A stretch of DNA of 64,000 nucleotides from positions 20,336,001 through 20,400,000 of the forward strand of contig NC_135803.1 in the NCBI RefSeq assembly GCF_964213995.1, read 5' to 3'. How positions within the stretch are numbered: the stretch's first letter is position 1; each line of letters starts with the position of its first letter. The stretch comes from Mustelus asterias (lineage: Eukaryota). The position numbers were made by a program, and so were the translations under genes. This document shows positions 13,880-62,869 of this stretch, piece after piece. The notes under the pieces were generated by a model, which was given only the letters and a program-made list of their open reading frames with translations, ran no database searches and had not been told where the DNA came from.

Positions 13880-14086
13880 AGTAAGAAGTCTCACAACACC
13901 AGGTTAAAGTCCAACAGGTTTATTTGAAATCACGAGCTTTCGGAGCATTGCTGCTTCATCAGGTGAGTGTTGAAGGAGCAGCGCTCCAAAACCTCGTGAT
14001 TCCAAATAAACCTGTTGGGCTTTAACCTGGTGTTGTGAGACTTCTTACTGTGCCCACCCCAGTCCAACGCCAGCACCTCCACCTCA
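13880..14086. mobile_element. Penelope-like element terminal insertion, fold-back arrangement, subfamily A
   Basis: Inverted arms of about 80 bp (AGTAAGAAGTCTCACAACACCAGG... / ...CCTGGTGTTGTGAGACTTCTTACT). Only the right arm has the tail CCCCAGTCCAACGCC..CA.CTCCAC. 12-bp TSD TCTCTCCACCAA at 13868-13879 and 14087-14098. Confidence 0.8.
13931..13965 (-). ncRNA. Minimal hammerhead ribozyme motif (PLE type)
   Basis: Minus strand CAC-CTGATGA-A-GCAGCAATGCTCC-GAAA-GC-TC-GTG. Intact catalytic core and stem I CAC/GTG; stem II has one mismatch. Confidence 0.7.
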
Positions 14087-15244
14087 TCTCTCCACCAAGA
14101 CTAGAAATTTTGCTGATATGGCACACTGGCGCATGAAAGTTTTTGGATCTTGTTGAGCTTGAATTGAAGGAACACCATGTTTCATTAATCCTCTTTTATG
14201 ATTGACCTTGGAGAGTTTAGTAGTTTCTCAATCTGCAAGGACATCGCAAAATTCATCAGGTTTTTAATGACAATTTGTTATCATGACATCTGCCCTTTAA
14301 GCAAAAATGCATAAGATATTTATGGAGGTGGAGGTAGCTGTGTGCGCAGCTCGTCATTTAGCTGCAGTGTATTTCTTTTATGAGTTTTTTTGCTGTTCTG
14401 TATTTGACAGAAATAATTTTGTGTTGCAAGTTTCTATGGCACTAAAACATAGCACTTAAATAGGTCAAAGCTGGCTACGCTGTGGCAGAGGTAGTTTGTA
14501 ACAGAAATAAATCACAGGTCAATTTTATATTAGTGTTCTACCCACAAAATTCATTATCTAAAAGTAATGGGATCATTCCTTTCCACCTTGCTTGGAAATG
14601 TGGGAGAGTCAGTGCAATTAATTTCAGTGATTAATTGTGGTGTGTCTCAGTGAAGGAAGTAATCTAGGAGTAAGTGTTCAAGAAGGTAGGCTTGATACCA
14701 AGGCAATCTTCACATTCCCAAATGTTTCATCATTTGTCTAGAAAAATGCCACATGAGAAACTAAAATTGCTTTCTTTGATGCTTCTTGTCCACTCAATAC
14801 TGCTGAGTGGTGACTTGTCACTGAACCTACTTGATTAAACAGGTGATCCAGATTTATATTTTTCATTCTTTCATGGGATGTGGACATTGTTGGCTAGGCC
14901 AGCATTTGTTGCCCATCCCTAACTGCCCTTGAGAAAGTGGTGGTGAGCCACCTTCTTGAACCGCTGCAGTCCATGTGGTGTGGGTACACCCACATTGCTA
15001 TTGTGGATTGCTTTTCATATATTGAATAACTATATTTCAGAACCATGATAGCCAGTCTGAAAGAAGGCACTGTAATTTGATGATGCTTTATGCAGGCAAC
15101 ACGTTGTGAACAGATATTTGACTCTAAAGAAACAATCGCTGTTTTCCAAAGATAATTGAGTGTGGAAACATTGTGAAAGCAGTTTTGCAGGCACTATATA
15201 AATGAAAGTTCTGTCAAATAGCCGCTTCTGTTGTGCCACTAGTG

Positions 15245-15430
15245 ATGCAGAGAGATGGCAACAGTGTGGGTTCAATTCCCATACCGGCAGAGTTTATTCC
15301 TGAAGGCCCCACCTTCTCAACCTTGCCCCTCGTCTGAGGTGTGGTGATCCTCAGGTTATATCACTACAAGTCATCTCTCCCACTCAAAGCAGCCTCTGGT
15401 CATCTGGGACAATGGTGACTTTACCTTGCC
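15245..15430 (+). mobile_element. Possible tRNA-derived SINE relic (different family)
   Basis: B-box-like GGTTCAATTCC at ~15269-15279 followed by a ~150-bp body ending GGTGACTTTACCTT. Confidence 0.4.
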
Positions 15431-15676
15431 ACTCGTATGCAGTGGACAAGATTGTAGATGCCAGATAGGAAGGAAAAGGAGAAATGGATGATGTTAGGGT
15501 GCAGGACTGTTGGCATGATGGAAAGGAAGGATTTTGACAATCCTTTTTACAGGGAGGAAGGAGGTGACCATGATGATCCAGGGGCCAGCACCATGGGAGC
15601 TGTATGAGTGACCACCAATGACACAACAAAGGAGGACCAGAACAAGATCAGCATTAGGGAGTGCAGAGTACTGTAA

Positions 15677-18200
15677 TGATTTGATTTGATTTGATTTATT
15701 ATTGTCACATGTATTGGGATACGGTGAAAAGTATTGTTTTTTGCACGTTTTGCACATTTTTGCACATTGAACAGACAAAGCATACCATTCATAGAGAAGG
15801 AAAGGAGAGGACACAGAATGTAGTGTTACAGTCATAGCTGGGGCATAGAGAAAGATCAACTTGAGTGAGGGAACCATGGTTCACAAAAGAGGTGGAATGC
15901 CTTGTAAAAGGGAAGAGGGAAGCTTATGTAGGAATGAGGAAACAAGGTTCAGTTGGCTCGATTGAGGGTTACAAGTTAGCAAGAAATGAGCTGAAAAAGG
16001 GGCTTAGGAGAGTTAGGAGGGGGCATCAGAAGTCCTTGGTGGGTCGGATCAAGGAAAACCCCAAGGCTTTTTACTCTTATGTGAGGAATAAAAGAATGAC
16101 CAGGGTGAGGTTAGGGCCGGTCAAGGACAGTAGTGGGAACTTGTGTATGGAGTCAGTAGAGATAGGCGAGGTGATGAATGAATACTTTTCTTCAGTGTTC
16201 ACCAAGGAGAGGGGCCATGTTTTTGAGGAAGAGAAGGGGTTACAGGCTAATAAGCTCGAGGAAGTAGATGTTCAGAGGGAGGATGTACTAGCTGTTTTGA
16301 ATAAACTGAAGGTCGATAAGTCCCCTGGGCCTGATGAAATATATCCTAGGATTATTTGGGAGGCAAGGGATGAGATTGCAGAGCCTTTGGCTTTGATCTT
16401 TGGGTCCTCACTGTCCACGGGGATAGTGCCAGAGGACTGGAGAGTGGCAAATGTTGTTCCTCTGTTTAAGAAAGGGAATTGAAATGACCCAGGTAATTAT
16501 AGGCCGGTTAGTCTTACTTCGGTGGTTGGTAAGTTGTTGGAAAAGGTCCTTAGGGATGGGATTTATGACCATTTAGAAAGATGCGGATTAATCCGGGATA
16601 GTCAGCACGAATTTGTGAAGGGCAAGTCGTGCCTCACAAATTTGATAAAATATTTTGAGGAGGTAATTAAGTGTGTTGATGAAGGTAGGGCAGTTGATGT
16701 CATATACATGGATTTTAGTAAGGCGTTTGATAAGGTCCCCCATGGTCGGCTTATGATGAAAGTAAGGAGGTGTGGGGTAGAGGGAAAGTTGGCCGATTGG
16801 ATAGGTAACTGGCTATCTGATCGAAGACAGAGGGTGGTGGTGGATGGAAAATTTTCGGACTGGAGGCAGGTTGCTAGCGGAGTGCCACAGGGATCAGTGC
16901 TTGGTCCTCTGCTCTTTGTGATTTTTATTAATGACTTAGAGGAGGGGGCTGAAGGGTGGATCAGTAAATTTGCTGATGACACCAAGATTGGTGGAGTAGT
17001 GGATGAGGTGGAGGGCTGTTGTAGACTGCAAAGAGACATAGATAGGATGAAAAGCTGGGCTGAAAAATGGCAGATGGAGTTTAACCCTGATAAATGTGAG
17101 GTGATTCATTTTGGTAGGACAAATTTAAATGTGGATTACAGGGTCAAAGGTAGGGTTCTGAAGACTGTGGAGGAACAGAGAGATCTTGGGGTCCTTATCC
17201 ACAGATCTCTGAAGGTTGTCACTCAAGTGGATAGAGCTGTGAAGAAGGCCTATAGTGTGTTAGCTTTTATTAACAGGGGGTTGGAGTTTAAGAGCTGTGG
17301 GGTTATGCTGCAACTGTACAGGACCTTGGTGAGACCACATTTGGAATATTGTGTGCAATTCTGGTCACCTCACTAAAAGAAGGATGTGGAAGCGCTGGAA
17401 AGTGTGCAAAGGAGATTTACCAGGATGCTGCTTGGTTTGGAGGGTAGGTCTTATGAGGAAAGGTTGAGGGAGCTGGGCTGTTCTCTCTGGAGCGGAGGAG
17501 GTTGAGGGGAGACTTAATAGAGGTTTATAAAATGATGAAGGTGATAGATAGAGTGAACGTTCAAAGACTATTTCCTCAAGTGGATGGAGCTATTACAAGG
17601 GGGCATAACTATAGGGTTCATGGTGGAAGATATAGGAAGGATGTCCGAGGTAGGTTCTTTACTCAGAGAGTGGTTGGGGTGTGGAATGGACTGCCTGCAG
17701 TGATAGTGGAGTCAGACACTTTAGGAACATTTAAGCGGTTATTGGATAGGCACATGGAGCACACCAGGATGATAGGGAGTGGGATAGCTTGATCTTGGTT
17801 TCAGATAAAGCTCGGCACAACATCATGGGCTGAAGGACCTGTTCTGTGCTGTACTGTTCTGTGTTCTATATGAGATAGGTTCATTCAAAAGCCTGAAGAA
17901 GCTGTTCTTGAGTCGGTTGGTACTTGTTCTCAGACTTTTTTTCTTTTTCCTGACAGTAGAAGGTGGAAGAGAGAATGTCTGGGGTGCGTGGGGTCCTTAA
18001 TTATGCTGGCTGCTTTGCCAAGGCAGCGGGAAGTGTAGACAGAGTCAATGGATGGAAGGCTGGTTTGCGTGATGGACTGGGCTTCGTTCACAACCCTTTG
18101 TAGTTTCTTGCGGTCTTGGACAGGGCAGGAGCCATACCAGCTGTGATACAACCAGAAAGAATGCTTTCTATGGTGCATCGGTAAAAGTTGGTGAGAGGAA
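15677..18200 (-). mobile_element. Rex1/Babar-type LINE 3' end, split by a CR1 insertion (parts ~15677-15862 and ~17870-18200)
   Basis: (CAAAT)n tail read as (ATTTG)n on +. ORF 17930-18229 has QDRKKLQRVVNEAQSITQTSLPSIDSVYTSRCLGKAASIIKDPTHP..SLFHLL.SG, typical of the Rex1-clade C-terminus. Confidence 0.8.
15863..17868 (+). mobile_element. 5'-truncated CR1/HER1-type LINE, ORF2 reverse transcriptase pseudogene
   Basis: ORFs 15865-16482, 16522-17376 and 17502-17792 give KSPGPD, YMDFSKAFDKVPH, GVPQGSVLGP, KFADDTK and RPHLEYCVQFWSP. Broken by stops at 16480 and 17374 and a frameshift. Ends in a (TGTTCT)-type tail. Confidence 0.95.
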
Positions 18201-19549
18201 GAGAGACAGTTAATGGAGGAAGCGGTCATGAAAACCTTTGAATCTGAAGCTGATTTGTGAGTTTCCTTACTGGTACATTGGAGCCAAAGGAGCTTGGAAA
18301 AGATGCACTATGGAAATGTTTGGACATCTGGAGAGTTATTTCTGAAAGATGATGTTGACTAGTTATTCCAAAGTTTCGGTCTGCATCATGAGAACCTTTT
18401 TGTCATTGAAAGAACATCATTCCTAATGAGTACAATTCTGGTGCACCAATTCCCTGGCCATGTCACTAAATCGAACGTCAGAATGAAAGCATCTGCTGCA
18501 TGTAGAAAATCTGATCATCGGTTCTTTGCCTCGACAGAAACAGAATCATTTAAGACACAGATCAATGAAAGTGGGTGCCTCGACATTTTAAGCTTTGCAA
18601 CACAAAGGCAACATTTAAGCCAGTCTTGAAATTTGCGGCGAGCGGTCCTCTTACAATTAGTCTGTGAAACATTCCTCCACTGACTAGTTAATAATGACTT
18701 TCAGTCACAGCTGATCAGTGGTTAAATTAAATTATTTTTGTAACAAGCTAATCTTTCAATTCCATTGCAATTTCTGACCTCCTGGCTGAACCCATGTCAG
18801 AATACCCAAGTTTTTCACACTGTTCATTCTTGTCCCACAGTGCTTGGCAATTACTTCTTGAAGAGGACAGTTTAAGTGCTCCTTGCATGAATGTTTCAAC
18901 TATTCATGGGCAGAATATTATCCGTGACTGGTTTCATGTGGCATGAACGTGGCTTTAATTTTGCCCAACCAGGTCGGAGCTTTCCATTAAAACAAGGAGG
19001 AATCCGTCGTAAATGACTGGACTTTCGTATTTGTGTATCAGTAATATTACGCCATTCCGTCAATGTAATCTAAAGTCAGATTGCTTGGCATTGTAACACC
19101 GTTTTTGAAAATCCATCTCATGCCGTTCAATACATTCAAGGTGAATTATTGGATTGCTTCTTTAAGTTTGGATGATGCGGTTATATTATATGCAGCTGCA
19201 CATAATAATGTCACTTTTTTAAAAATGTAGTTATTATGAGATGTAATGGCCAGCCTGAAGAGCACAAATGTTCTTGTTTTGCCTTTTACAAGGGCAGTGT
19301 TGATATGGTGCCATACTATTTAGTCTTACTCTGAGCTCAGCTTTTCTTTCTCTGTCTCTACTTAACTTCTGTTCAATCCCTGTCACAGCTCTTGCACATT
19401 TCCCTTCATTTGAATTTACTGGTCCGCCACAGACAAAATGTATTTGGATTGGTTGCGGGCTCTCTTAACGCTTTCGTTACCTACCCTGCTTAACAGGCAC
19501 AGTTCCATTGTCAGTGGTGCCAAAGAGTAGAATTTGAGAAGGCATATGG

Positions 19550-19990
19550 GATAGAAACATAGAAGATAGGGGCAGGAGAAGACCATTTGGCCCTTTGAGC
19601 CTGTTCCGCCATTCACCATGATCATGGTTGATCATCCAACTCAATGGCCTAATCCTGCTTTCTCCCTATAACCTTTGATCCCATTCACTCCAAGTGCTAT
19701 ATCCAGCCACCTCTTGAATACATTCAATGTTTTGGCAGCAGCTACTTCCTGTGGTCATGAATTCCACAGGCTCACCACTCTTTAGGTGAAGAAATGTCTC
19801 TTCATCTCCGTCCTAAATGGTCTACCCCAAATCCTCAGACTGTGACCCCTGGTTCTAGACACACTCACCATCGGGAACATCCTCCCTGTATCTACCCTGT
19901 CTAGTCCTGTTAGAATTTTATAAGTCTCTATGAGATCCCTCCTCATTCGTCTGAACTCCAGTGAAAACAATCCTAACCTAGTCAATCTGT
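19550..19990 (-). mobile_element. CR1-type LINE 3' fragment
   Basis: ORF 19782-19985 (RLGLFSLEFRRMRRDLIETYKIL) plus the 3' UTR with TCTATGTTTCTAT tail. Confidence 0.88.
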
Positions 19991-20716
19991 CAGCTTACTT
20001 GGCTTTATTAACTGAGGCATAGAATATAAGAGCAGGGAGGTTAAGATGGAGCTGTATAAAACACTCATTCAGCAGCTAAAATACTGGCTGCAGTTCTCAT
20101 CGCCACACTATAGGAAGATGCAGAAGAGATTCGCCAGGATGTTACCTGGGTTGGAGCTTTTTAACTTACCAGTTCCCACAACCACCCATCTCCCTTGCTG
20201 CCTTGGACCTGCATTGGGAGACAGCAGCCCTGGCTCCAGCCCACACCTGATCCTTGAAGACCAAAATTCCAGGTGAATGGACTGACTTTACAAAGTTGGG
20301 AACTCAATGTCGGGAAATGGACACTTCCTGAACTGAAGACAAATATTCCACCTCTAGTCTCAGTAATGGTAACCATGAAACTACCAGACTGTTGCAAAAA
20401 TACATCTGGTTCAATATTGTTCATTTGGGAAGGAAATCTGTCGTCCTTTCCCGATCAAGCCTACACATGTTCCCAGACCTAATCGAAAAGTCTGAAGAAT
20501 AAATGTGTGGACTACCTGGCTTTAACCCAGGCACTGGATATAACAAAGGCACAGCCAGCCCACCCAGCACTGTAACATCCTCCTCACTAACATCTGGGAA
20601 CAGCCAAAAGTGGGAGAACCTCCTCACAGATTAGTCAAGCAATAGCCTGACATGATTTGATTTAGTATTGTCACATGTACTCGTATACAGTGAAAAGTAT
20701 TGTTTCTTGTGCACTA

Positions 20717-21981
20717 TGTGTCTCATGAACTTGATCGAGTTTTTCAAGGAAGTGACAAAGATGATTGATGAGGATAGGGCAGTGGATGTTATCTACATGG
20801 ACTTCAGTAAGGCTTTTGACAAGGTCCCTCATGGCAGACTGGTGCAGAAGGTGAAGTCGCATGGGATCAAAGGTGAGCTGACAAGGTGGATACAAAACTG
20901 GCTCGGTCAAAGTAGACAGAGGGTAGCAGTGGAAGGGTGCGTTTCTGAATGGAGGGCTGTGACAAGTGGTGTTCCTCAGAGATCAGTGCTGGGACCTTTG
21001 CTGTTTGTAATATATATAAATGATTTGGAGGAAAATGTAACTGGATTGATTAGTAAGTTTGCGGACGACACAAAGGTTGGTGGATTTGCGGATAGCGATG
21101 AGGACCATCAGAGGATACAGCAGGATATTGATCAGTTGGAGACTTGGGCGGAGAGATGGCAGATGGAGTTTAATCTGGACAAATGTGAGATAATGCATTG
21201 TGGAAGGTCTAATACAGATAGGAAATGTACAGTAAATAGCAGAACCCTTAAGAGTATTGATAGGCGAAGGGATCTGGGTGTACAGGTACACAGGTCACTG
21301 AAAGTGGCAATGCAGGTGGAGCAGGTAGTCAAGAAGGCATATGGCATGCTTGCCTTCATCGGCCGGGGTATTAAGTTTAAAAATTGGCAAGTCATGTTGC
21401 AGCTTTATAGAACCTAAATTAGGCCGCACTTGAAATATAGTGTTCAATTCTGGTCGCCACACTACCAGAAGGATGTGGAGGCTTTGGAGAGGGTACAGAA
21501 AAGATTTACCAGGATGTTGCCTGGTATGGAGGACATTAGCTATGAGGAGAGGTTGGAGAAACTTGGTTTGTTCTCACTGGAGCGATGGAGGTTAAGGGGA
21601 GACCTGATAGAAGTCGACAAGATTATAAGAGGCATGGACAGAGTGGATAGTCAGAAGCTTTTTTCCAGGGTGGAAGAGTCAATTACTAGGGGGCAAAGGT
21701 TTAGGGTGTGAGGGACAAGGTTTAAAGGAGATGTACGAGGCAGATTTTCTGCACAGAGAGTGGTGGGTGCCTGGAACTCCTTGCCGGGGGAGGTAGTGGA
21801 AGCGGATACGGTAGTGACTTTTAAGGGGCGTCTTGACAAGTACATGAGTAGGATGGGAATAGAGGGATATGGTCCCCGGAAGGATAGGGGGTTTTAGTTA
21901 AGTCAGGCAACACGGTCGGTGCAGGCTTGGAGGGCCGAAGGGTCTGTTCCTGTGCTGTAATTTTCTTTGTTCTTTGTTCTT
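20717..21981 (+). mobile_element. 5'-truncated CR1-type LINE, RT pseudogene
   Basis: ORF 20668-21417 (YMDFSKAFDKVPH...GVPQRSVLGP...KFADDTK) and ORF 21430-21711; (TTCTTTG)n tail. Confidence 0.93.
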
Positions 21982-22042
21982 ATATGGACAAAACATACCA
22001 TTCATAGAGTACATAGGGGAGAAGGAAAGAAAAAGGTGCAGA

Positions 22043-22362
22043 ATCATAGAATCATAGAATCCTACAATGCAGAAGGAAGCCATTCAGCCCATCGAGTCTG
22101 CACCAACCACAATCCCACCCAGGCCCTGTCCCCGTAACCCTATGTATTTATCCTTCTAATCCCCTGAAGCTAAGGGGCAATTTAGCATGGCAAATCAACC
22201 TAACTCGCACATATTTGGACTGTGGAAGGAAACAGGAGCATCCGGAGGAAACCCACGCAGACACGGGGAGAATGTGCAGATTCCGCACAGTCACCCGAGG
22301 CCGGAATTAAACCTGGGTCCCTGGCTCTGTGAGGCAGCAGTGCAAATCACTGTGCCACTGTG
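22043..22362 (-). mobile_element. HE1 SINE (type A, CR1-derived tail)
   Basis: Head, V-core and tail ending (ATTCTATG)n. Confidence 0.88.
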
Positions 22363-22884
22363 CACAGAATGTAGTGTTCCCTCACAGCTCGAGTGAGGGG
22401 AAGATCAGCTTAATGTATGGTAGGCCCATTCAAAAGTCTGATGGCAGCAGGTAAGAAGCTGTTCTTGAGTCAGTTGATCATCCTCATCGGAACATCCACA
22501 CATATGCCCTGTCCCGCTAGCACAATGACGGTCAGTTAGGATGGAGTGGCAGTGAAATTCCCCAACAATGATTCTGAAGCCCGTGAAGCCTCTTGGCATC
22601 AGGTCAGACATGGACAAGGAACCCTCCTGCTGATCATCACCGACCATGCTCTCTCAACCGATGAATCAATACACAGTACTCCACAGCTGAACACCATTTG
22701 GAAGAGACAGTGAGAAGAGGATAGGTATAGAACCTCAATGTCCATCGCCAAAAGTGGCTTCATGCTAGCGATACCCATAAACCACAAACAAATAAAAAGA
22801 AAATCTGACAATGAACATAGCAACTTCGATGTCACCTTCACTTTAGTGTCACTTTCCAAAATATAAAGCCTTATCTCTTTTTCT

Positions 22885-26145: not shown

Positions 26146-26226
26146 AAACCTGTTGGACTTTAACCTGGTGTTGTGAGACTTCTTACTGTGCTTACCCCAG
26201 TCCAACGCCGGCATCTCCACATCATC
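26146..26226 (+). mobile_element. Penelope-like element extreme 3' fragment, subfamily A
   Basis: AAACCTGTTGGACTTTAACCTGGTGTTGTGAGACTTCTTACTGTGCTTACCCCAGTCCAACGCCGGCATCTCCACATCAT, flanked by TCTCGAT (26139-26145 and 26227-26233). Confidence 0.8.
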
Positions 26227-33705: not shown

Positions 33706-33911
33706 TACAATCCTGGCTGATCTAACTTCTGGGAAGAAAGGTCCCAGAATGGAACTCTGGTTCACAAAACCATAACTTTTACTTTGTTTTAGAAAATGTG
33801 GATGAACAGCATCAGAGGAATGCCATTAGCTTTTAACTACAGAAAAGAACTTCAACAACTGTACATTCCTGTCTGGCATAAGAGTAAAATGGGGAAGGCT
33901 GCTCATCCATG

Positions 33912-34039
33912 ATGTCCTGTTTGTGAACAGAATTCCCACTCACCTGAAGAAGGGGCTTGGGGCTCCGAAAGCTTGTGTGGCTTTTGCTACCAAATAAACC
34001 TGTTGGACTTTAACCTGGTGTTGTTAAACTTCTTACTGT
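33912..34039 (+). mobile_element. Penelope-like terminal fragment, subfamily B, tail-less
   Basis: Matches the right arm of the 61894-62628 element (TGTTTGTGAACAGAATTCCCACTCACCTGAAGAAGGGG...CTTCTTACTGT). Confidence 0.82.
33941..33977 (+). ncRNA. Minimal hammerhead ribozyme motif (PLE type), sense to host pre-mRNA
   Basis: CAC-CTGAAGA-A-GGGGCT-TGG-GGCTCC-GAAA-GC-TT-GTG, with intact core, 6-bp stem II (including G-U pairs) and stem I CAC/GTG. Confidence 0.75.
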
Positions 34040-34052
34040 ACAAACAAGGGAA

Positions 34053-34267
34053 CACAGTAAGAGTTTTAACAACACCAGGTTAAAGTCCAACAGGTTTATT
34101 TGGTAGCAAACACCATTAGCTTTCGGAACGCTGCTCCTTCAGCGCTCCTTCAGCGCTCCGAAAGCTAGTGGCGTTTGCTACCAAATAAACCTGTTGGACT
34201 TTAACCTGGTGTTGTTAAAACTCTTACTGTGTTCACCCCAGTCCAACGCCGGCATCTCCACATCATG
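34053..34267. mobile_element. Penelope-like fold-back insertion, subfamily C
   Basis: Inverted arms CACAGTAAGAGTTTTAACAACACCAGG... / ...CCTGGTGTTGTTAAAACTCTTACTGTG plus tail; 13-bp TSD ACAAACAAGGGAA at 34040-34052 and 34268-34280; partial hammerhead ...GCTCC-GAAA-GC-TA-GTG. Confidence 0.85.
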
Positions 34268-37981: not shown

Positions 37982-38432
37982 ATTCTGCACCCTCTCCTTT
38001 CCTTCTCCCCTCTGTACTCTATGAATGGTATGTTTTGTCTATATAGTGCGCAAGAAACAATACTGTTCATGCATTTGGGGCGGCGCAGTGGTTAGCACTG
38101 CTGCCTCACAGCATCAGGGACCCAGGTTTGATTCCCGGCTTGGGTCACTGTCTGTGTGGAGTTTGCACATTCTCCCCATGTCTGCGTGGGTTTCCTGCGA
38201 GTGCTCCGATTTTCTCCCACAATCCAAAGATGTGCAGGTTAGGGGGGATTGGCCATGCTAAATTGCCCCTTAGTGTCAGGGGACTAGCTAGGGTGAATGC
38301 ATGGGGTTATGGGGATAGGGCCTGGGTAGGATTGTGTTCGGCATAGACTCGATGGTCCGAATGGCCTCCTTCTGCACTGTAAGATTCTTTGTATCCCAGT
38401 ACGTGTGACAATAATAAATCAAATCAAATCAA
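37982..38432 (+). mobile_element. Rex1-type tail (+) interrupted by a full HE1 SINE (38077-38390, +)
   Basis: ATTCTGCACCCTCTCC...CAAGAAACAATACT, then HE1, then GTATCCCAGTACGTGTGACAATAAT(AAATC)n. Confidence 0.85.
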
Positions 38433-40020: not shown

Positions 40021-40252
40021 TGTAGAGAGAAGATAGAATTGAAATGGCCAGGATGTGTAGCATGAGGATCGAAGAGTTATAACTTTGATTGAAAACCCCT
40101 CAACCAGGACTTCTTCTTAGCTTTTTTAAATTGACCTTCAAGGGTGAAACCATGATCGTTCAAGTGATTCACCCAGGCTAGGGTAGGGTCAGGGATCTGG
40201 GTGGTCAATGAGGTTAAACCGAGACTTTACCTGATGCAATTTCTCAAAGCCA

Positions 40253-40277
40253 TCTGGGCCTTTTGGCTAAGATCAAG
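40253..40277 (+). pseudogene. U2 snRNA 5' fragment (U2 nt ~7-31)
   Basis: GGCCTTTTGGCTAAGATCAAG (40257-40277) is identical to vertebrate U2 snRNA nt 11-31 as I recall it. The sequence diverges before the branch-recognition motif GTAGTA, so this is not a U2 gene. Confidence 0.75.
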
Positions 40278-40538
40278 CCCAGGATAGGGTGCGATGCCTC
40301 ATCTTGTCAGCTTGGATCTTGTTTGTCCCTCTCGTGGGGACCATGAAATAGATTCCATTTGAATTTGGTTTTTTGGATCAAATAAAAATATTTAAGAAAT
40401 AAATAAACTCGAAATAGGTTAGCATTTTTCAACCAAAACTAGTTGCTCCCATTTCACATCAAACCTGCTCATATTCTAAGTTGTTGAGTTGCTAAGCTTA
40501 TTTGAAACTATTTTCTAGTTATGTATGCAGAATAGTCA

Positions 40539-40681
40539 TGATGTGGAGATGCCGGCGTTGGACTGGGGTAAACACAGTAAGAAGTTTAACAACACCAGGT
40601 TAAAGTCCAACAGGTTTATTTGGTAGCAAAAGCCACACAAGCTTTTGGAGCTCCAAGCCCCTTCTTCAGGTGAGTCTCAAC
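40539..40681 (-). mobile_element. Penelope-like terminal insertion, subfamily B, with mutated hammerhead (40636-40672)
   Basis: Tail plus pLTR-like end; 13-bp TSD TGCAGAATAGTCA at 40526-40538 and 40682-40694; hammerhead GAAA changed to AAAA (CpG-type decay). Confidence 0.85.
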
Positions 40682-43989: not shown

Positions 43990-44670
43990 ATTAAAAGTAC
44001 TTCTAACAACTTTATCACAGCCAGTGCAGTACGTTAAAATTATAGTCACTGTCGGAATAGAGAGAAATGTGACAGCCAATTTGTTATAGTGGTGCTAATT
44101 GATGGATAAATGTAGCCCATGATGCCAAGTTAACTCCCTTGTTCTTCTTCCATGGAATACCGCAAGATTTCTTGCGTCTGCTTGAAAAAGTAGATAGGAT
44201 TGGGGGTGGCACGGTGGCACAGTGGTTAGCACTGCTGCCTCACAGCGCCAGGGACCTGGGTTTGAATCCCGGCTTGGGTCACTGTCTGTGTGGAGTTTGC
44301 ACGTTCTCCCTGTGTCTGCGTGGGTTTCCTCCGGGTGCTCCGGTTTCCTCCCACAGTCTGAAAGATGTGCTGGTTAGGTGCGTTGGCCTGAACAGGCACT
44401 GGAATATGGCAACTAGGGGATTTTCACAGTAGCTTAATTGCCGTGTTAATGTAAGCCTTACTTATGACTAATAAATAAACTTTAAACTTTAAAAAAAAGG
44501 ACCCAAGGTGTGATGTCTAATCGAAAAAAAACAGCACCTTTGATGGTGCAGCAGTCCCTCAGTACTGCACTGATGTGTCACCTCTGATCAGGTGCTCAAA
44601 TCTCTGGAGTGGAACTAAACACCACTCCAGAGATTCTGACTCCTAGGAGAGATCGACCACTGAACCATGA
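43990..44670 (-). mobile_element. Ancient Deu-domain SINE split by a type B V-SINE (44203-44495, +)
   Basis: CAGCACCTTTGATGGTGCAGCAGTCCCTCAGTACTGCACTG...GTGCTCAAATCTCTGGAGTGG (head, minus strand), with Deu-like body at 44020-44200. Confidence 0.55.
44203..44495 (+). mobile_element. V-SINE, type B tail
   Basis: Full head, V-core and tail ending ATAAATAAACTTTAAACTTTAAAA. Confidence 0.9.
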
Positions 44671-47940: not shown

Positions 47941-47944
47941 ATTG

Positions 47945-48466: not shown

Positions 48467-48670
48467 AAGAAGTCTCACAACACCAGGTTAAAGTCCAACA
48501 GGTTTATTTGGAATCACAAGCTTTCGAAGCGCTGCTGCTTCATCTGGTGAGTGATGAAGGAGCAGTGCTCCAAAAGCTCGTGATTCCAAATAAACCTGTT
48601 GGACTTTAACCTGGTGTTGTGAGACTTCTTACTGTGCCCACCCCTGTCCAATGCCGGCATCTCCACATCA
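48467..48670. mobile_element. Penelope-like fold-back insertion, subfamily A
   Basis: Same structure as 13880-14086; TSD CAG(G/A)TAGTTTCATAGT at 48451-48466 and 48671-48686. The minus-strand hammerhead at 48515-48549 has CTGA changed to CAGA. Confidence 0.85.
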
Positions 48671-48994
48671 CAGATAGTTTCATAGTCGCATTACTGAGAG
48701 TAGTTTTCAGTTCCAGGTTTATTTATTGAATTTAAATTCTGCGGTGATGGGATTTGAACCAGCGCGAATCTGGGCCTCTTGATTACTAATCCAGTGACAT
48801 TACCACTATGCCACCATCTCTTTCCAGCTTGATACAGATCCTCATAATGACAAAAATCAATCAGTAACAGTGCATGGTTAATGATTCTTGAACATCTCTT
48901 GGGCAGCAACAGATGGAAGCATCAGTAATCCAGTTGTGGAGTTTGTCAAATGCAGAGAAAATGGCTGAGTGAAAATCAGTGCACACAAGGACAG

Positions 48995-51614: not shown

Positions 51615-51708
51615 ATGGCTTGGGGCTCCGAAAGCTTGTGTGGCTTTTGCTACCAAATAAACCTGTTGGACTTTAACCTGGTGTTGTTAAACTTCTTACT
51701 GTGTTTAC
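51615..51708 (+). mobile_element. Penelope-like terminal fragment, subfamily B
   Basis: GGCTTGGGGCTCCGAAAGCTTGTGTGGCTTTTGCTACCAAATAAACCTG...CTTCTTACTGTGTTTACC; 3' half of the hammerhead only. Confidence 0.8.
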
Positions 51709-51977
51709 CATTTTCAACCACAACCACTTCAGCTGGTGCCCTTTGTTCATCTCATACAGCTGAACACAGCAGAATGGGTCCCCCTCTCCCAGCAATACTA
51801 TTCAAAGGTATCAACTACTTGCAGGTTAGTTGTTAATTGCTTTCTAGTGGCAGTTGTTGAGTTGATGCAAGCATTTGGATGGTCTTAATGTTGCTAAGCT
51901 CTATAGGGAATGGTGTGGCAATGCTGAAGGACTTGGTCCTGACTACCAGGGTTCCACTCAGACTACCCACTCCAGAT

Positions 51978-55445: not shown

Positions 55446-55446
55446 T

Positions 55447-55815
55447 AGGGGAGGTGGTGGCGGAGTGGTATTGTCACTGGACTCGCAATCCAGAGACCCA
55501 GGGCAATGATCTGGAGACCCAGGTTTGAATCCCGCCACTGCAGATGGTGAAATTTGAATTCAGTAAAAATCTGGAATTAAAATTCTAATGATGGGCATGA
55601 AACCATCGTCGATTGGTCTAAAAACACATCTGGTTCCCTAATGTCCTTTCGGGAAGGAAATTTGCCTCCTTACCTGGTCTGGCCTACATGTGGTTGTGAT
55701 GGGAAATAGCAATGTGGTTGACTCTTAACTGCCCCCGCAGGGGCATTTAGGGATAGGCAATAAGTGCTGGGGCAGCCGGCGATACCCAAATCCCATGAAC
55801 GAATAAACAAAAAAT
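55447..55815 (+). mobile_element. tRNA-derived SINE with L2-type tail (non-V family)
   Basis: A-box-like TGGCGGAGTGG, B-box GGTTTGAATCC, body and tail ...CCCATGAACGAATAAACAAAAAA; related fragments at ~14860-14930, 47710-47940 and 48690-48820. Confidence 0.7.
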
Positions 55816-56569
55816 TCAAGTGTTCTTCATGCTCTGAAAACCTTCCCAAGTCTCTACCAGCAACACTACTTTCAAGTGGTGCTAGCCTCATACGCATTTA
55901 GACTCCCTAGTGAGGCATGCAGCCATGCAAGAACATTTTTAGCACTGGGCTGCACGCATCAATCATATAAATCAAAATTGCATGCGAGCTGTATCAGAAG
56001 GAACAGGAACGGGTCAATTGCACATTGCAACCTCTGTACCCATGTCAGATTTTGGCTCCCGCAGTCCCTAGTGGGACCATAACATTGCCGGTCACAAAGG
56101 ACACCTTTCACTCATCACAGCTGACTCCATGTGGCAAAGTTGGGTGGGTGGGGGAGAGAAAACGTTAAGGGGCCAAAATAGTCACAATATGCTAAGGACG
56201 TTCTTGCGTAAGATCTTTTGAAGTTTGAGGAGGCAGTATAGCAGCAATGCAACACTACAACAGTGTGTATTACCCACCAAAGCCTATCTTGGTCAGTCTC
56301 CCCCACTAGACTGCTTAGCAGAGGCTACAGAACCAGCCGCCCAAAGCCAGGGGTATATCTTGTGGCAGCTAATCTTCCCTGCCAAAGAGGCACTTTGATT
56401 TTGCAATAACAAAAAATCCAGGCCATAATCTGAGTGTGTTATATAAGATGGCAGAATCTTCCAGTCTGGAGTATATGCTGAGTGACAGGGGCAGAAGCGA
56501 CAGTGATTTACACTTGGAGGCCTGACAGCTGACTACACGCAGTCCTCACACTGGCCATCTCATTAGATA

Positions 56570-56870
56570 TGGCAGCAGAGTAGCACAGTGGTCAGCACCC
56601 CTGCCTCACAGCACCAGCGACATTGGGTGACTGTCTGTGTGAAGTTTGCACGTTCTCCACATGTCTGCGTGGGTTTCCTCCAGATGCTCTGGTTTCCTCC
56701 CACACTCCAAAGATGTGCAGATTAAGTGGATTGACTGTGCTAAATTGCCCATTAGTGTCCCAAGTTGTGTAGGTAAGGTGGATTAGGGGTTACAGGGATT
56801 GGGCGGGCAAACCTGGATAAGATTCTCAGTCAGTGCATACTCAATGGGCTGAATGGACTCCTCCCCAGCA
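56570..56870 (+). mobile_element. Older HE1 SINE (type A)
   Basis: Diverged head, V-core and GGGCTGAATGGACTCCT tail. Confidence 0.8.
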
Positions 56871-59172
56871 CCAGTCCCTGTGGCACCCCACTAGTTACTG
56901 CCTGCCAAGGACCCATTAATTCCTACTCTTTGTTTTCTCTCTGCCAACCAGTTTTCTATCCATCTCAATACACTTTGAAGCTGTCCCTCCCACCTTGAGC
57001 AATTCAGCCAATGGGAAGCCCTGTACCGAGCATCGGGCCACTCTTGGCCTCTCCTCGTCACGGTGAAACGCATCCTGGAGGAGCACAGATGTGTTGCCCT
57101 CTTGTTCTTATCGTCATGTGCATGCATTGACTGGGGTAATGAAAACCACGTCTGTGCATCCTCACTCAAACACTGTTGGGCTTTGAGAGACCCTTGCCTT
57201 GCCATCATAGACGTGCCATCTACCCCACGAAAAACCACGACCATCTACCTGGGTCCCTCGAGATCAAAACCGGCACACTGTTGTCATTCCCCTGTCCACC
57301 TTGCTATCCACTCCATGGAATCTCATCCACCTCCGAAGCAGTGCCCTCGCTTGTTGTAACAGAGCCTGTACATTTTCCTCTCCCACTCCTGTCTAGTTGC
57401 CAATGTTTCACGGTTAAGGGTCAAATGCAAGTAGAGTAGAATGACTTGATGGCATAAGACGCAGTGGAATGGGGAAAGCTACCTTCTACTGTGGGTAATG
57501 TTTTGGAATTCCTAATAACTATTCTAATAGTGGCAGCACTGGTTGAAGCTGTCCAGTTTACACAAAGATGTGAACATCATGAAATACATTGGCTGGTAAT
57601 TTCTGCTCTGGGAAAATATGGAGAGCGGCCAAAAGTCAATTGGAAAATTTGGAAAATCCTGGCCATCGAATCAGAATTCATAAAACGTTATGTGCGTTTT
57701 TCTGCTTAGTCTGATGTTTCTTTTTAAATGATAAATCCTGAGGAAATCATTGAATTAGCACCTCAGTGTCCAAACATTATGTCTCCAGGAAGATGAAAAT
57801 TCCAATGACTAATTCTGTTCTAGACCACAAAGACCCTGATATATGAATTCAGTTATTTACAGTGCATTTATTATAAATTTCTTTAATAGACTGAGCAGAA
57901 TGATTCATTAAATCATATTCTTCACTTGCATTAAGAGCCTCAGACAGCGGGAAGGAACAACACCACCCCTTCGCTGTCTGCAGTCACACACATATCTACA
58001 TATCACTTTGGCCTGTCACCCACTTCCTATCTCTTTCTTTGGTGCTGTGTCAGTTTTTATCTGATGTTGGTCATTTGAAGTGCCTTAGGATGTTGCTTAT
58101 GTTAAAAGCGGTTTATAATTGCAAGTTGTGACTTTGTTGAATGAGATCCGACGTTAGTTGACTGTGTACAACATAAATCCATTTTGTAATTCTCCACTGT
58201 TGATGTAATATTGTCTCAAACCCTTAACATCGAGACAATAACACTACATCGTACCTTGGTGGCTTAAAAACTAGATATGAGGCCAGTCAGTCAAAGTCAA
58301 GTTAATTTCAGATGTTTTCAAACAAATAGGACTATAATAGAAGAGGACAAAAGTGATATTACATTTGCAGTGTTATTTTAAGAGCCAGTTTCACATGTCA
58401 TAAATTTCTTTCTGAATTTAAAAGGTTGTTAAATTCCAGTACTGAAGAGAGAGAGAGCAATTTCTTCTAAAGGATTGAAGATTTAATTGAGCATTAAGGA
58501 ACAAATGTGCAGTTCTGATTACTAGTGTCGAACACTGTTTCAGTCAAAGTGCCGACATTCAATTAATCATGAACTTTCAGTGAAAATATTCACCATTCTC
58601 ATGTTTTACTTTCATAACGGCCCAAGCTGCCTAATTCCAACTGATCAATTCATTAAAGCAAAACAAAATACCTTCAATCTAGATTAAAATTAAACAAAAG
58701 ATTACACATTTGAAAATTATTGGGTTTGTAACAATATTGCAATGTAACACTTGTTTGAAAGCAGCACATTTTTATCAGTAGCTGTCTGATGCGTGACACA
58801 ATGCCATGGAAAATCTACGGTTATGGAAAGCAAACAGCAAATTTCGTAAATTAACATGGAAATAAGCACAATATATTCCAGTTCATCTTCATGCTCTCTT
58901 TCTACATCTCTTCCCCCCCCCATCTTTCCGATTGCCATTCCTTTGGTGTCTGTTCAGCTGTCCGTGTGCATCTTTCTTCTTGCTTTCTCTGTTTATCGAG
59001 CGTGTAATTTTCTCTCTCGCAGTCTGAAAACCTTTCGCAGTATTTTTTAGTGGATTAATTCAGACACTTGCCCCAGGTTCCCATATGTTCTACTTGAATA
59101 ATGTTGAGTGGTTTAATCGTCATGGAGAGACAGCTACTGATAAATTCACCACCTTCCCGGTTTAGGTTTAAA

Positions 59173-59520
59173 GGGCGGCACGGTAGCGCAGTGGTTAGCA
59201 CTGCTGCTTCACAGCTCCAGGGACCTAGGTTCGATTCCCGGCTTGGGTCACTGTCTGTGTGGAGTTTGCACATTCTCCTCGTGTCTGCGTGGGTTTCCTC
59301 CGGGTGCTCCGGTTTCCTCCCACAGTCCAGAGATATGCGGGTTAGGTTGATTGGCCATGTTAAAATTGCCCTTAGTGTCCTGGGATGCATAGGTTAGAGG
59401 GATTAGTGGGTAAAATATGTAGGGATATGGGGGTAGGGCCTGGGTGGGATTGTGGTCGGTGCAGACTCGATGGGCCGAATGGCCTCTTTCCGTGCTGTAG
59501 TGTTTCTAAGATTTCTAAGA
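59173..59520 (+). mobile_element. HE1 SINE (type A), near-consensus
   Basis: GGGCGGCACGGTAGCGCAGTGGTTAGC...GGTTCGATTCCC (A/B boxes), V-core, tail ending (TTTCTAAGA)2. Confidence 0.92.
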
Positions 59521-59782
59521 TCAACTTTGCCCACGTTGCCTTATGTGCCACATCTACCCTCTGGACCAGCATGGAAAATCAGGATGGCATTGCCAGCATT
59601 CAAAGTATGTCACTGAATCCTTCTGCCTGATTACCCTGGCCTAACAATATGTCCACAATTATATACATTGGCACTAACCCCTATCTATAAGCTCTCTCTT
59701 TCTCCTTTCCAATTACCTCTCTTGTCAGAGCTGTAGCCCCAGAGGATGGGATTTGCTATAGAATTATTATACAATTATTATA

Positions 59783-61040
59783 CTGGCACTGGAAGGGGTG
59801 CAGAGGAGATTCACTAGGTTAATTCCAGAGTTGAGAGGGTTGGCTTATGAGGAGAGACTGAGGAGACTAGGGCTAAACTCATTGGAATTTAGAAGAATGA
59901 GGGGGAATGAGGGAGGATACAGCAAGATTGTAGACCAGTTGGAAACTTGGGCGGAGAAATGGCAAATGGAGTTTAATCTGGACAAGTGTGAGTTAATGCA
60001 TTTTGGAAGGTCCATTGCATGTAGGAATTATACAGTAAATGGTAGAACCCTCAGGAATATTGACAGGCAGAGAGATCTAGGTGTACATGTCCACCGATCA
60101 CTGAAACTGGCAACGCAGGTGGATGAGGTAGTCAAGAAAGCATACAGTATGCTTGCCTTCATCGGTCGGGGCATTGAGTATAAAAATTGGTGGATCATGC
60201 TGCAGCTCTACAGAACCTTAGTTAGGCCTCATTTAGAATATTGTGTACAATTCTGGTCGCCACACTACCAGAAGGATGTGGATGCTTTGGAGAGGGTCCA
60301 GAAGAGGTTTAGCTATGAAGAGAGGTTGGAAGACGGAGGTTGAGGGGTGACCTGATAGAGGTCTACAAGATTATGAGTGGCATGGACAGAGTGGGTAGTC
60401 AGATGCTTTTCCCTAGGATAGAAAAGCCAAGTACTCGGGGACATAGGTTTAAGATGCGTGGGAAACATTTAGAGAAGATGTGCAAGGCAAGTTTTTTTAC
60501 ACAGAGGGTGGTGAATGTCTGGATGTGCTGCCCGGGGAGGTGGTGGGAGCAGGTACGATAGCAGCAGTTTAGGCAGGCACCATGATCGGTGCAGGCTTGG
60601 GGGGGCCGAAGGGCCTGTTCCTGTACTGTACTGTTCTTTATTCTTTGTTCTCTTTGTTTATAGAAACATATAAAATTGTGAAGGAAATAGATAAGATAGA
60701 AGCAGGGAGGTTGTTTCCACTGACAGGTGAAACCAGAACTAGAGGGCATAGCCTCAAAATAAGAGGGAGCAGATTTGGGACTGAGTTGCGGAGGAACTTC
60801 TTCACCCAAAGGGTTGTGAATCTGTGGAATTCCCTGCCCAGTGAAGCAGCTGAGGCTACCTCGTTGAATATTTTTAAGGCAGAGATAGATTGTTGAACAG
60901 TAAAGGAATTAAGGGTTATGGTGAGTCGGCGGGTAAGTGGAGCTGAGTCCACAAAAAGATCAGCCATGATCTGATTGAATGGCGGAGCAGGCTCGAGGGG
61001 ACCAAGTGGCCTACTCCTGCTCCTAGTTCTTATGTTCTTA
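59783..61040 (+). mobile_element. CR1 3' fragment (59783-59907 + 60656-61040) with a second CR1 family (~59908-60655) nested inside
   Basis: Host breaks at EFRRMRGN and resumes at IETYKIVK. The insert runs DQLETWAEKWQMEFN... to its own TTCTTTGTTC tail. Confidence 0.88.
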
Positions 61041-61426
61041 TTTATGAAGACACAATGCAACCATATTGGTGTTGTTGCTCAGTTAAGTTTTAATTCCCCT
61101 TTGCTACTTAGCAAATAAATATACTCATTTTGAATTTTCACTTAATCCTAAATGTTATAGATAAATATCAGTGCACTTATCATCATGTCTATATAATATA
61201 TATATTATAATAATCTATTTTCCTGCTCTTTATGCTTCAAAACTGCCGTTAGAGGCAGCTTGGGAATAGTTAATGATGTTGCTGTGGGGAGAATTAAGTT
61301 CTGCATGTTTTTTTTATGGTGATTTCAATTGTTGCTTCTCAGTATTGCAGAACAAATTGCTTTTCCATTTCTAGCACCTACTGTAGGAAAGTGCTCTCTC
61401 ATCACCTAAACAATATACACTTTATT

Positions 61427-61880
61427 GGGCGGCATGGTGGCACAGTGGTTAGCACTGCTGCCTCCAAAAGACATGCTGGTTAGGTGCATTGACTCAAACA
61501 GGCTCCGGAGTGTGGCGACTCGGGGAATTTCACAGTAACTTCATTGCAGTGTTAATGTAGGCATTACTTCTGACGAATAAATAAACTTTAAACTTTTCAC
61601 AGCACCAGGGACCCGGGTTTGATTCCCGGTTTGGATCAATGTCTGTGTGGAGTTTGCACGTTCTCCCCATGTCTGCGTGGGTTTCCTCCGGGTGCTCAGG
61701 TTTCCCCCCACAGTCCAAAAATGTGCGGGTTGGGTGGATTGGCCATGCTAAATTGCCGCTTGGTGTCAGGGTGGCTAGCTAGGGTAAAAGCATGGGGTTA
61801 TGGGGATAGGCCTGGGTGGGATTGTGGTCAGTGCAGAAGTGGGCCAAATGGCCTCCTTCTGCGCTGTAGGATTCTATGAT
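61427..61880 (+). mobile_element. HE1 SINE (type A) with a 5'-truncated type B SINE (~61465-61597) inserted in its head
   Basis: ...GCACTGCTGCCTC|CAAAAGACATGCTGG...AATAAATAAACTTTAAACTTTT|CACAGCACCAGGGACCCGGG... Confidence 0.88.
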
Positions 61881-61987
61881 TGCTTCAATATGATGTGGAG
61901 ATGCCGGCGTTGGACTGGGGTAAACACAGTAAGAAGTTTAACAACACCAGGTTAAAGTCCAACAGGTTTATTTGGTAGCAAAAGCCA

Positions 61988-62024
61988 CACAAGCTTTCGA
62001 GGCTCTGAGCCCCTTCTTCAGGTG
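61988..62024 (-). ncRNA. Minimal hammerhead ribozyme motif (PLE type)
   Basis: Reverse complement of 62531-62567; intact core. Confidence 0.75.
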
Positions 62025-62530
62025 AGTGGGAATTCTGTTCACAAACAGAACTTATAAGACACAGACTCAATTTACATGAATAATGGTTGGAATGCGAATA
62101 CTTACAACTAATCCAGTCTTTAAGAAACAAAACAATGGGAGTGGAGAGAGCATCAAGACAGGCTAAAAAGATGTGTATTGTCTCCAGACAAGACAGCCAG
62201 TGAAACTCTGCAGGTCCACGCAACTGTGGGAGTTACAAATAGTGTGACATAAATTCTGATTCTAGGATCGCATGATAAAGACTCAGGAGGAAAAAAGCAG
62301 AAATATTTATGTGAAATAGTGTGACATAAACCCAATATCCCGGTTGAGGCCGTCAATTCACAGTCGGTTGGAGACAATACACATCTTTTTAGCCTGTCTT
62401 GATGCTCTCTCCACTCCCATTGTTTTGTTTCTTAAAGACTGGATTAGTTGTAAGTATTCGCATTCCAACCATTATTCATGTAAATTGAGTCTGTGTCTTA
62501 TAAGTTCTGTTTGTGAACAGAATTCCCACT

Positions 62531-62567
62531 CACCTGAAGAAGGGGCTCAGAGCCTCGAAAGCTTGTG
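62531..62567 (+). ncRNA. Minimal hammerhead ribozyme motif (PLE type), sense to host pre-mRNA
   Basis: CAC-CTGAAGA-A-GGGGCT-CAG-AGCCTC-GAAA-GC-TT-GTG, with intact core, 6-bp stem II and a palindromic AGCT in place of stem III. Confidence 0.78.
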
Positions 62568-62869
62568 TGGCTTTTGCTACCAAATAAACCTGTTGGACTT
62601 TAACCTGGTGTTGTTAAACTTCTTACTGTGCTTCAATATGACCAGTGAGCTGAATGTAAATGGCCTGAACCAACTTCATTTTGGACTCTTCAAGCTGGCC
62701 AAAGGAGAAACAGCTTGGATTTATTTAGCCCCTTTGATATCTCAAATCACCTTGGCCATGTGGTCAATGCCACACCCAATTTGTGCATAGCACAATCCCG
62801 AGAATATTAATGAATTGACTGACCATTGGAATTGAGAGCTTCCTCCCCTTACGGAGCGATTGAAAGGTC

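What the first reader, a model, noticed from the sequence alone, without database searches (positions are those of the whole stretch)
13880..62628. Dispersed family of hammerhead-ribozyme-bearing Penelope-like insertions in a shark SLC9A9 intron, with covariation across three subfamilies
Seen: eight related insertions (13880, 26146, 33912, 34053, 40539, 48467, 51615, 61894) share AAACCTGTTGG(A/G)CTTTAACCTGGTGTTGT...CTTACTGT. Just upstream, seven of them retain all or part of CAC-CTGA(T/A)GA-A-[stem II]-GAAA-GC-TH-GTG. Stem II differs in sequence but keeps pairing (GGAGC/GCTCC, GGGGCT/AGCCTC, GGGGCT/GGCTCC), and the cleavage-site base is C, T or A but never G. Established: CUGANGA/GAAA/NUH is the hammerhead core, and Penelope-like elements are known to carry minimal hammerheads with a tiny palindromic stem III that are thought to cleave as dimers. 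Inference: at least three PLE subfamilies with a selected ribozyme were recently active in this genome. About one copy per 8 kb here would imply a very large ribozyme-motif load if typical. I cannot tell whether these shark families are already described.
Basis: partly seen in the sequence, partly recalled or inferred. Interest (0 to 1): 0.8.

Follow-up and report, generated by a model that had tools for sequence, protein, structure and literature searches.

The report
Shark Penelope retrotransposon ends with hammerheads
The eight repeats are broken-off ends of a very abundant, young jumping gene of a known kind that carries a known small hammerhead RNA motif, predicted to cut itself only weakly; what stands out is more than 120,000 such motifs in one shark genome and a hint that a few percent of copies begin at the predicted cut.

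Summary
Observation confirmed. The 29-mer has 12 exact copies forming 8 insertions in a 66-kb SLC9A9 intron. They are 5'-truncated, often inverted 3' ends (pLTRs) of a Neptune-type Penelope-like element. Whole copies are 3,097-nt units with one frame encoding RT, Cys linker and GIY-YIG; about 90 of 150 scored copies have an unbroken 912-913-aa frame. The motif is the minimal hammerhead of Cervera & De la Pena 2014. Corrections: only 4 of 12 arms (3 of 8 insertions) keep a whole core; stem II covariation is modest; the cleanest covariation is in stem I (C-G 82,194; U-A 39,860; mixed 8,461). Genome load is 122,054 motifs, one per 30 kb, close to the axolotl total in a far smaller genome. 142 of 167 arms were copied across the cut site, yet 5' ends are twice as common at it (23 of 63 vs 11.5; microhomology confounds this). 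Targets are symmetric: TG-NN, 12-13-bp duplication, NN-CA. Catalysis is untested. The scan reported this family before, in this genome and others. New member of a known kind.

The parts
594..705 (+). SLC9A9 (NHE9) coding exon, host gene
   Evidence: tblastn 92-95% to two chondrichthyan NHE9 proteins over aa 404-443; AG/GT borders read
7879..8032 (+). SLC9A9 exon (aa 441-492); the 66-kb intron holding all 8 insertions follows
   Evidence: next exon at G000:C3:20410415
13880..14086 (.). Insertion 1: inverted pair, short-spacer subfamily, tail on the + arm, 12-bp target duplication
13934..13962 (-). Minimal hammerhead with whole core; one C-C mismatch in stem II; predicted cut after 13934
26146..26226 (+). 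Insertion 2: 29-mer plus tail only, no hammerhead, 7-bp duplication
33912..34039 (+). Insertion 3: single arm of the 21-nt-spacer subfamily, abutting insertion 4; no duplication found
33944..33974 (+). Minimal hammerhead with whole core, sense to SLC9A9; predicted cut after 33974
34053..34267 (.). Insertion 4: inverted pair, both arms keep only the 3' half of the hammerhead, 13-bp duplication
40539..40681 (-). Insertion 5: single arm with tail; core at 40669-40639 has G12->A; 13-bp duplication
48467..48674 (.). Insertion 6: inverted pair; minus-arm core (48546-48518) has U4->A, plus arm truncated with G12->A; 12-bp duplication
51623..51709 (+). Insertion 7: single arm starting inside stem II; no duplication found
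61894..62628 (.). Insertion 8: youngest. The minus arm is 431 nt at 100% identity to a whole copy (last ~15 codons, 3' UTR, hammerhead) plus the tail; 265-nt perfect inverted arm; 13-bp duplication
61991..62021 (-). Minimal hammerhead with whole core; predicted cut after 61991
62534..62564 (+). Minimal hammerhead with whole core, sense to SLC9A9; predicted cut after 62564

Best explanation
The eight insertions are 5'-truncated 3' ends of a Neptune-type Penelope-like retrotransposon with a minimal type I hammerhead motif in its terminal repeat; the motif is likely a weak ribozyme that works only as a dimer or with protein help, and the window's copies are likely inert. Shown: whole copies are 3,097-nt (or 3,021-nt) units with one RT + Cys-linker + GIY-YIG frame, a hammerhead about 130 nt before the ATG and a second one unit downstream. 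Copies end at two places, about 55-70 and 90-105 nt 3' of the predicted cut. Targets are duplicated by 12-13 bp and flanked symmetrically by TG..CA. Inferred: a dimeric endonuclease nicks both strands; reverse transcription starts inside the RNA at those two places (target-primed), runs back through the hammerhead and usually stops early or switches strand, giving stubs and hairpins. Inferred: two same-strand hammerheads pair through AGCU/AGCU and cut after C-U-H. Most templates were uncut or re-joined there, and a small share was probably cut. Selection on the motif acts in the few source elements, not in the >100,000 stubs.
For: Pfam RVT_1 (E 5e-10) and GIY-YIG (E 9e-5), both over cut-off. 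DKG, YIDD, CxxxxCxxC and CCHH motifs align with 11 homologs, two of which are truncated before parts of the C-terminal motifs. 26 of 26 loci chosen for a whole frame show a direct terminal repeat of 96-5,772 nt; 23 of 26 have two same-strand hammerheads. About 93 of 150 scored N-terminal matches lie in unbroken 912-913-aa frames (counted by eye). The tail is on exactly one arm in 55 of 60 inverted pairs, and the duplication is 12-13 bp in 31 of 60. In 110 arms not selected for the core, core positions are 93-100% invariant while N7 (54 C, 33 T, 23 A) and H17 (47 A, 45 T, 18 C, 0 G) vary. Pair 2.1:1.1 genome-wide: C-G 82,194, U-A 39,860, C-A 4,833, U-G 3,628; reversed-pattern controls 0. 22 haplotypes: 91% of cells paired, 4 of 10 pairs change on both sides (10 of 500 shuffles reach that), slid controls 32-47% paired. 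142 of 167 arms extend past the cut site. The features match the min-HHR as described in PMC4209133; internal priming, the tail and protein-assisted cleavage are described for a Poseidon element in PMC11167929.
Against: No cleavage was measured. No Rfam hammerhead family scored at E <= 5 in the window. The isolated motifs fold no better than shuffles (z 0.0 to 0.12 for three). The dimer hammerhead scores -18.1 kcal/mol against -37.6 for an inactive stem II cross-pairing (the model lacks tertiary terms). The covariation is a handful of events in related lineages, and the further-pair-types measure is not above shuffles (291 of 500). The 29-mer is equally invariant, so a conserved core does not by itself prove catalysis. 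Neptune versus Nematis was not separated by a tree with named references. An open frame was linked directly to four subfamily types (plus for the U-A type), not to the GUGAUUCC type of window insertions 1 and 6.
Confidence: 0.85

Rival explanations
1. Circle model: the two hammerheads one unit apart cut out a unit-length RNA that is circularised, and reverse transcription runs round it more than once, giving the partial and full tandems.
For: Upstream repeats vary from 96 nt to more than one unit, with seamless junctions. In 11 of 26 loci, repeats of one insertion share variants seen in none of the other 25 loci. Proposed in PMC4209133.
Against: Read-through transcripts of tandem sources (L161-L163) or template jumps give the same picture. 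L170's repeats differ at two subfamily-level sites. Hammerhead mutants did not affect insertion in vitro for the Anolis element (PMC11167929).
Confidence: 0.3
2. The motif is kept as a folded RNA or protein-binding element, or is a passenger, and does not cut in vivo.
For: 142 of 167 arms were copied through the site. The active fold is not the predicted minimum. Naiad and most Chlamys PLEs thrive without hammerheads (PMC8557442). No RNA-seq reads ended at the site in Anolis (PMC11167929).
Against: G is avoided at position 17 while A, U and C each mark subfamilies. The pair next to the cut changes on both sides. 5' ends are in two-fold excess at the site.
Confidence: 0.2
3. The short copies are a non-autonomous retrozyme- or MITE-like family that amplifies on its own.
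For: Most copies are short; 60 of 107 sampled insertions are inverted pairs.
Against: Arm lengths and junctions differ from copy to copy. No tandem arrays of short units were seen. Sequences are collinear with whole coding elements, at 100% identity for insertion 8.
Confidence: 0.04
4. The motifs are domesticated regulators of SLC9A9 pre-mRNA.
For: Two whole cores are sense to the gene.
Against: They are 28.6 kb apart, and one lies in a 265-bp perfect hairpin. No strand bias: 7+/5- in the window, 6+/6- in 200 kb of flank. The family is genome-wide.
Confidence: 0.02

Closest known systems
Minimal hammerheads (min-HHR) in pLTRs of metazoan PLEs, including Xena, Poseidon and Neptune of fishes (Cervera & De la Pena 2014, PMC4209133)
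   Same: Type I core, no stem III loop, palindromic 15.2-16.2, extra base between 9 and 10.1, G10.1-C11.1, short stem I, mostly single or opposite-strand copies
   Different: Shark host, not named in the parts read. 122,054 motifs against about 4,000 (coelacanth) and 9,000 (Xenopus tropicalis); the descriptors differ. Stem II is 5-6 bp against 7-8 bp in Schistosoma.
Neptune clade of EN+ Penelope-like elements (features as given in Craig et al. 2021, PMC8557442)
   Same: Single RT + C-terminal GIY-YIG frame, DKG, CX2-5CxxC linker, CCHH, partial tandems, inverted 5'-truncated copies, 30-40-bp tail
   Different: No microsatellite targeting seen; clear 12-13-bp duplications with symmetric TG..CA flanks. 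Copy number (170,125 exact 29-mers) exceeds the roughly 37,000 quoted as exceptional for Naiads; the units counted differ.
Poseidon element of Anolis carolinensis (PAc; Frangieh et al. 2024, PMC11167929)
   Same: Two internal 3' end points that define the tail; hammerhead upstream of them; insertion from uncut RNA; both target strands cut
   Different: Here the hammerhead and tail lie before the ATG, while in PAc the ORF starts in stem II. Cys linker present. Target preference is TG..CA rather than ATT.
Non-LTR retrozymes (Cervera & De la Pena 2020, PMC7229834; Li et al. bioRxiv 10.64898/2026.07.22.740005)
   Same: Type I hammerhead; very high number (axolotl 126,247 motifs)
   Different: Retrozymes are non-coding tandem repeats of 170-400 nt; these are dispersed truncations of a coding element.

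Membership tests
EN+ Penelope-like element | Single ORF with RT and C-terminal GIY-YIG endonuclease | tested here: met
   913-aa frame; RVT_1 and GIY-YIG over Pfam cut-offs
EN+ Penelope-like element | DKG motif; CCHH motif with cysteines between the GIY and YIG equivalents | tested here: met
   definition in PMC8557442
EN+ Penelope-like element | pLTRs from partial tandems; inverted 5'-truncated copies | tested here: met
   26 of 26 whole-frame loci with a direct repeat; 60 of 107 insertions inverted
EN+ Penelope-like element | 30-40-bp tail at one end only | tested here: met
   bimodal 3' ends; tail on exactly one arm in 55 of 60 pairs
EN+ Penelope-like element | RT groups with PLE RTs in a tree with named references | not tested
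   no named PLE reference proteins were on hand; homologs are unnamed
Neptune clade | CX2-5CxxC linker between RT and EN (shared with Nematis, absent in Penelope/Poseidon) | tested here: met
   C-x4-C-x2-C
Neptune clade | Placement in Neptune rather than Nematis | not tested
   inferred from the vertebrate host: Li et al. found only Neptune and Poseidon in vertebrates
min-HHR of metazoan PLEs | Core CUGANGA, GAAA, UH with H not G | tested here: met
   80 of 110 spanning arms whole; G17 631 of 82,194
min-HHR of metazoan PLEs | Extra base between 9 and 10.1; G10.1-C11.1; palindromic 15.2-16.2; no loop 3 | tested here: met
   A in 110 of 110; G-C 93 and G-U 14 of 110; AGCU
min-HHR of metazoan PLEs | Stems I and II kept through compensatory change | tested here: met
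   few independent events
min-HHR of metazoan PLEs | Self-cleavage as dimer or with protein | not testable with these tools
   only the indirect 5'-end excess
Rfam hammerhead families | Covariance-model match | tested here: not met
   no hammerhead family among 8 matches at E <= 5 in the window
Non-LTR retrozyme | Non-coding tandem repeats of 170-400 nt with a hammerhead in each unit | tested here: not met
   dispersed single or inverted arms; tandems are 3-kb coding units

The most novel reading that the evidence does not exclude
This shark Neptune family is a genomic record of a PLE hammerhead acting in vivo. About 2-4% of copies start where the ribozyme cuts, the rest came from uncut or re-joined RNA, and the symmetric TG-NN / 12-13 bp / NN-CA target shows a dimeric GIY-YIG cut. 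With over 120,000 motifs and dozens of intact young copies, the genome alone could settle what PLE hammerheads do.
Probability: 0.4. Interest if true: 0.62.

Novelty: new member of a known kind. Interest (0 to 1): 0.36.

Why it matters
The role of the hammerhead in Penelope-like elements is still called unclear (PMC8557442), and the one reconstituted element did not need it in vitro (PMC11167929). A young family with about 90 or more intact frames, over 120,000 motifs and subfamily-level covariation gives the numbers to test cutting from insertion junctions alone, and gives natural substrates for dimer and protein-assisted cleavage assays. The motif density (one per 30 kb) is about eight times that implied for axolotl (126,247 motifs in 28 Gb). 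The element class and the motif are known; the window's copies are ordinary stubs.

Tried and rejected
Rfam scan: no hammerhead hit. Single-strand folding: no excess stability. Expression: no RNA holder was listed on record. Four coded runs were laid, all assembled contigs, which cannot show RNA ends or strand; no place with many molecule ends was listed, so this gives no verdict. Circle versus linear template: repeats share private variants in 11 of 26 loci and one locus is discordant, so it is not decided. Cleavage footprint: the first sample gave 9 of 167 arms at -1..+1. The second gave 23 of 63 against 11.5. That set is the first 30 rows plus 40 regions picked by eye from rows 31-100; short-spacer rows, about 10 rows read as single substitutions and one palindromic pair were left out. 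About 6-7 of the 23 have a 3-4-nt microhomology (by eye), and arms of one insertion are not independent, so it stays a lead. Strand bias in SLC9A9: none. The first exon search put the last exons on another contig; the next exon was then found 10.4 kb past the window. Literature: searches for hammerhead + Penelope + shark (4 papers, none on this), Penelope + shark genome, Neptune + elasmobranch, PLE + Chondrichthyes, repeat landscape, hammerhead + cartilaginous fish and target preference found no description of this family in the held library. Dfam and Repbase could not be searched. The supplements of Li et al., which sampled one chondrichthyan, and of PMC4209133 were not seen and may list it. 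No structure prediction was run; sequence motifs sufficed.
Full report
Observation. The 29-mer has 12 exact matches in the window and none in 100 shuffles. Six have target duplications of 7-13 bp. A whole hammerhead core stands in 4 of the 12 arms, in 3 of the 8 insertions; the others carry G12->A or U4->A, or are cut short. The host gene is SLC9A9: exons at 594-705 and 7879-8032 match chondrichthyan NHE9 at 92-100%. The next exon is 10.4 kb past the window, so the insertions share one 66-kb intron.

What it is. Insertion 8 led to longer copies that encode a GIY-YIG domain. Whole copies are units of 3,097 or 3,021 nt with one 912-913-aa frame, 893 aa from the first Met in the longer form. The protein has RT motifs (RVT_1), DKG, a C-x4-C-x2-C linker and a CCHH-type GIY-YIG end. 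By the features given in PMC8557442 (passages) this is a Neptune- or Nematis-type EN+ PLE. Neptune is inferred from the host group, not from a tree. Relatives at 84-95% are annotated as uncharacterized proteins in three other sharks. About 93 of 150 scored N-terminal matches lie in unbroken 912-913-aa frames at 96-100% identity (counted by eye: 74 + 19), so amplification is recent. ORF remnants at 77-97% adjoin other hammerhead subfamilies, so the subfamilies belong to one lineage.

Anatomy of insertions. All 26 loci chosen for a whole frame have a direct terminal repeat of 96-5,772 nt, and three hold two or more whole units. In 167 arms not selected for the core (20 arbitrary stretches, 40 stretches chosen for the 29-mer, 20 stretches around SLC9A9, and the window), 3' ends fall in two groups, about 10-27 and 46-56 nt after the 29-mer. 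The longer end is the PLE tail; it sits on exactly one arm in 55 of 60 inverted pairs. This matches the two internal priming sites shown for the Anolis element (PMC11167929, parts 1-2 of 4 read). Of 114 sites with a duplication of 10 bp or more, 78 are 12-13 bp. Among those, TG lies at -4,-3 outside the duplication in 106 of 156 half-sites (background 7.8%) and CTG at -5..-3 in 71 of 156 (background 2.2%) (a few sites recur in reverse complement). A symmetric target is what a dimeric nuclease would give; that step is inferred.

The hammerhead. It reads stem I 5' strand, CUGANGA, one extra A, a 5-6-bp stem II opening with G-C, GAA, AGCU, H, stem I 3' strand. This is the min-HHR of PMC4209133 (parts 1-2 of 4 read), reported there in Neptune, Poseidon and Xena elements of fishes. 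There, monomers did not cleave and dimers cleaved weakly. In 110 parsed spanning arms (3 more did not parse), core positions are 93-100% invariant, N7 and H17 vary among three bases, G17 is absent, and 80 cores are whole. Genome-wide, the stem I pair beside the cut is C-G in 82,194 motifs and U-A in 39,860, against 4,833 C-A (the listed rows are mostly CpG decay of one subfamily) and 3,628 U-G. G17 is 631 of the 82,194, scattered over all stem types listed. On 22 chosen haplotypes, 91% of cells pair and 4 of 10 pairs change on both sides; shuffles reach that in 10 of 500, and the further-pair-types measure is not significant. Adding two rows of an older second family gives 8 of 12 pairs. The structure is real, but the number of independent changes is small. 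Folding does not favour the active form, in line with weak or protein-assisted activity.

Load. 170,125 exact 29-mers and 122,054 cores with a Watson-Crick first pair in 3.68 Gb, one per 30 kb. The patterns do not demand stem II pairing. The window is about four times richer in exact 29-mers than the genome. Published counts, with other descriptors: about 4,000 in coelacanth and 9,000 in Xenopus tropicalis, and 126,247 canonical motifs in axolotl (PMC7229834, passages; 28 Gb).

How it likely works. The element's protein nicks both strands at a TG..CA-flanked site and primes reverse transcription inside the RNA 55-105 nt downstream of the hammerhead. It usually stops early or switches strand. 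142 of 167 arms extend past the predicted cut, so most templates were uncut or re-joined. Only partial or full tandems put two hammerheads on one strand at a fixed distance; there, AGCU/AGCU pairing could allow cutting. Inverted stubs fold into long hairpins that bury the motif, so the window's copies are probably inert. 5' ends are in excess at the cut: 23 of 63 truncated arms at -1..+1 against 11.5 expected from a uniform null with the same filter (nominal P 5e-4), and 7 against 17.7 at +2..+5. About 6-7 of the 23 have microhomology, 40 of the 70 regions were picked by eye, and paired arms are not independent, so this is a lead. Whether cut RNA is circularised is open: repeats share private variants in 11 of 26 loci, and one locus is discordant.

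Comparison and novelty. It works like, and meets every tested feature of, an EN+ PLE with a min-HHR. It is not a retrozyme. Seven literature searches found no account of this shark family. Repeat databases were not available, and Li et al. (part 1 of 5, passages and section 12 read; supplements not seen) sampled one chondrichthyan for retrozymes and PLEs. PMC6155905 was seen as passages. The scan's own notes hold 259 findings with these words in at least 25 genomes, two of the eight shown from this genome, including the cut-site idea. My searches came before that look-up and after it.

Verdict. A real, correctly read finding; a new member of a known kind. Interest 0.36, carried by the load, the youth of the family, the stem I covariation, the target symmetry and a testable cut-site signal.

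Noticed in passing
114 insertion sites across loci L001-L317 and the window: Symmetric target preference: (C)TG two bases outside each end of a 12-13-bp duplication; TG in 106 of 156 half-sites against 7.8% background. Not found in print by one search.
   Followed up: partly
L174:5983-6025 (-), L297:577-619 (-), L240, L229, L245: A second, older hammerhead-bearing repeat with ACGU in place of AGCU and a GAGUC/GACUC stem II; 32 blast pieces in 400 kb, none in the window. Probably another PLE family; its ORF was not sought.
   Followed up: partly
G000:C681 and C2283; L230: SLC9A9 exons for aa 509-625 lie on other contigs, and there is a 200-N gap about 20-30 kb past the window, so the assembly splits the gene.
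   Followed up: partly
window 40246-40280: A 5' fragment of U2 snRNA of about 35 nt, likely a retroposed pseudogene piece.
   Followed up: no
window 33903-34267: Insertion 3 ends exactly at the target duplication of insertion 4, a different subfamily, and has no duplication of its own; possibly one compound event or a reused site.
   Followed up: no
L068:2158-6615 (+): A 1,486-aa open frame in which a CR1-like ORF2 runs in frame into a 5'-truncated PLE ORF; probably a chance in-frame insertion.
   Followed up: no
L170: The downstream repeat differs from the upstream and inverted repeats at two subfamily-level sites, suggesting a switch between two RNAs or gene conversion.
   Followed up: partly
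window 38070-38303, 44204-44388, 59173-59406 and others; 17041-17625, 21130-21715, 59780-60463: Many copies of a tRNA-like SINE and of LINE fragments; the labels SINE and CR1-like are from recall.
   Followed up: no
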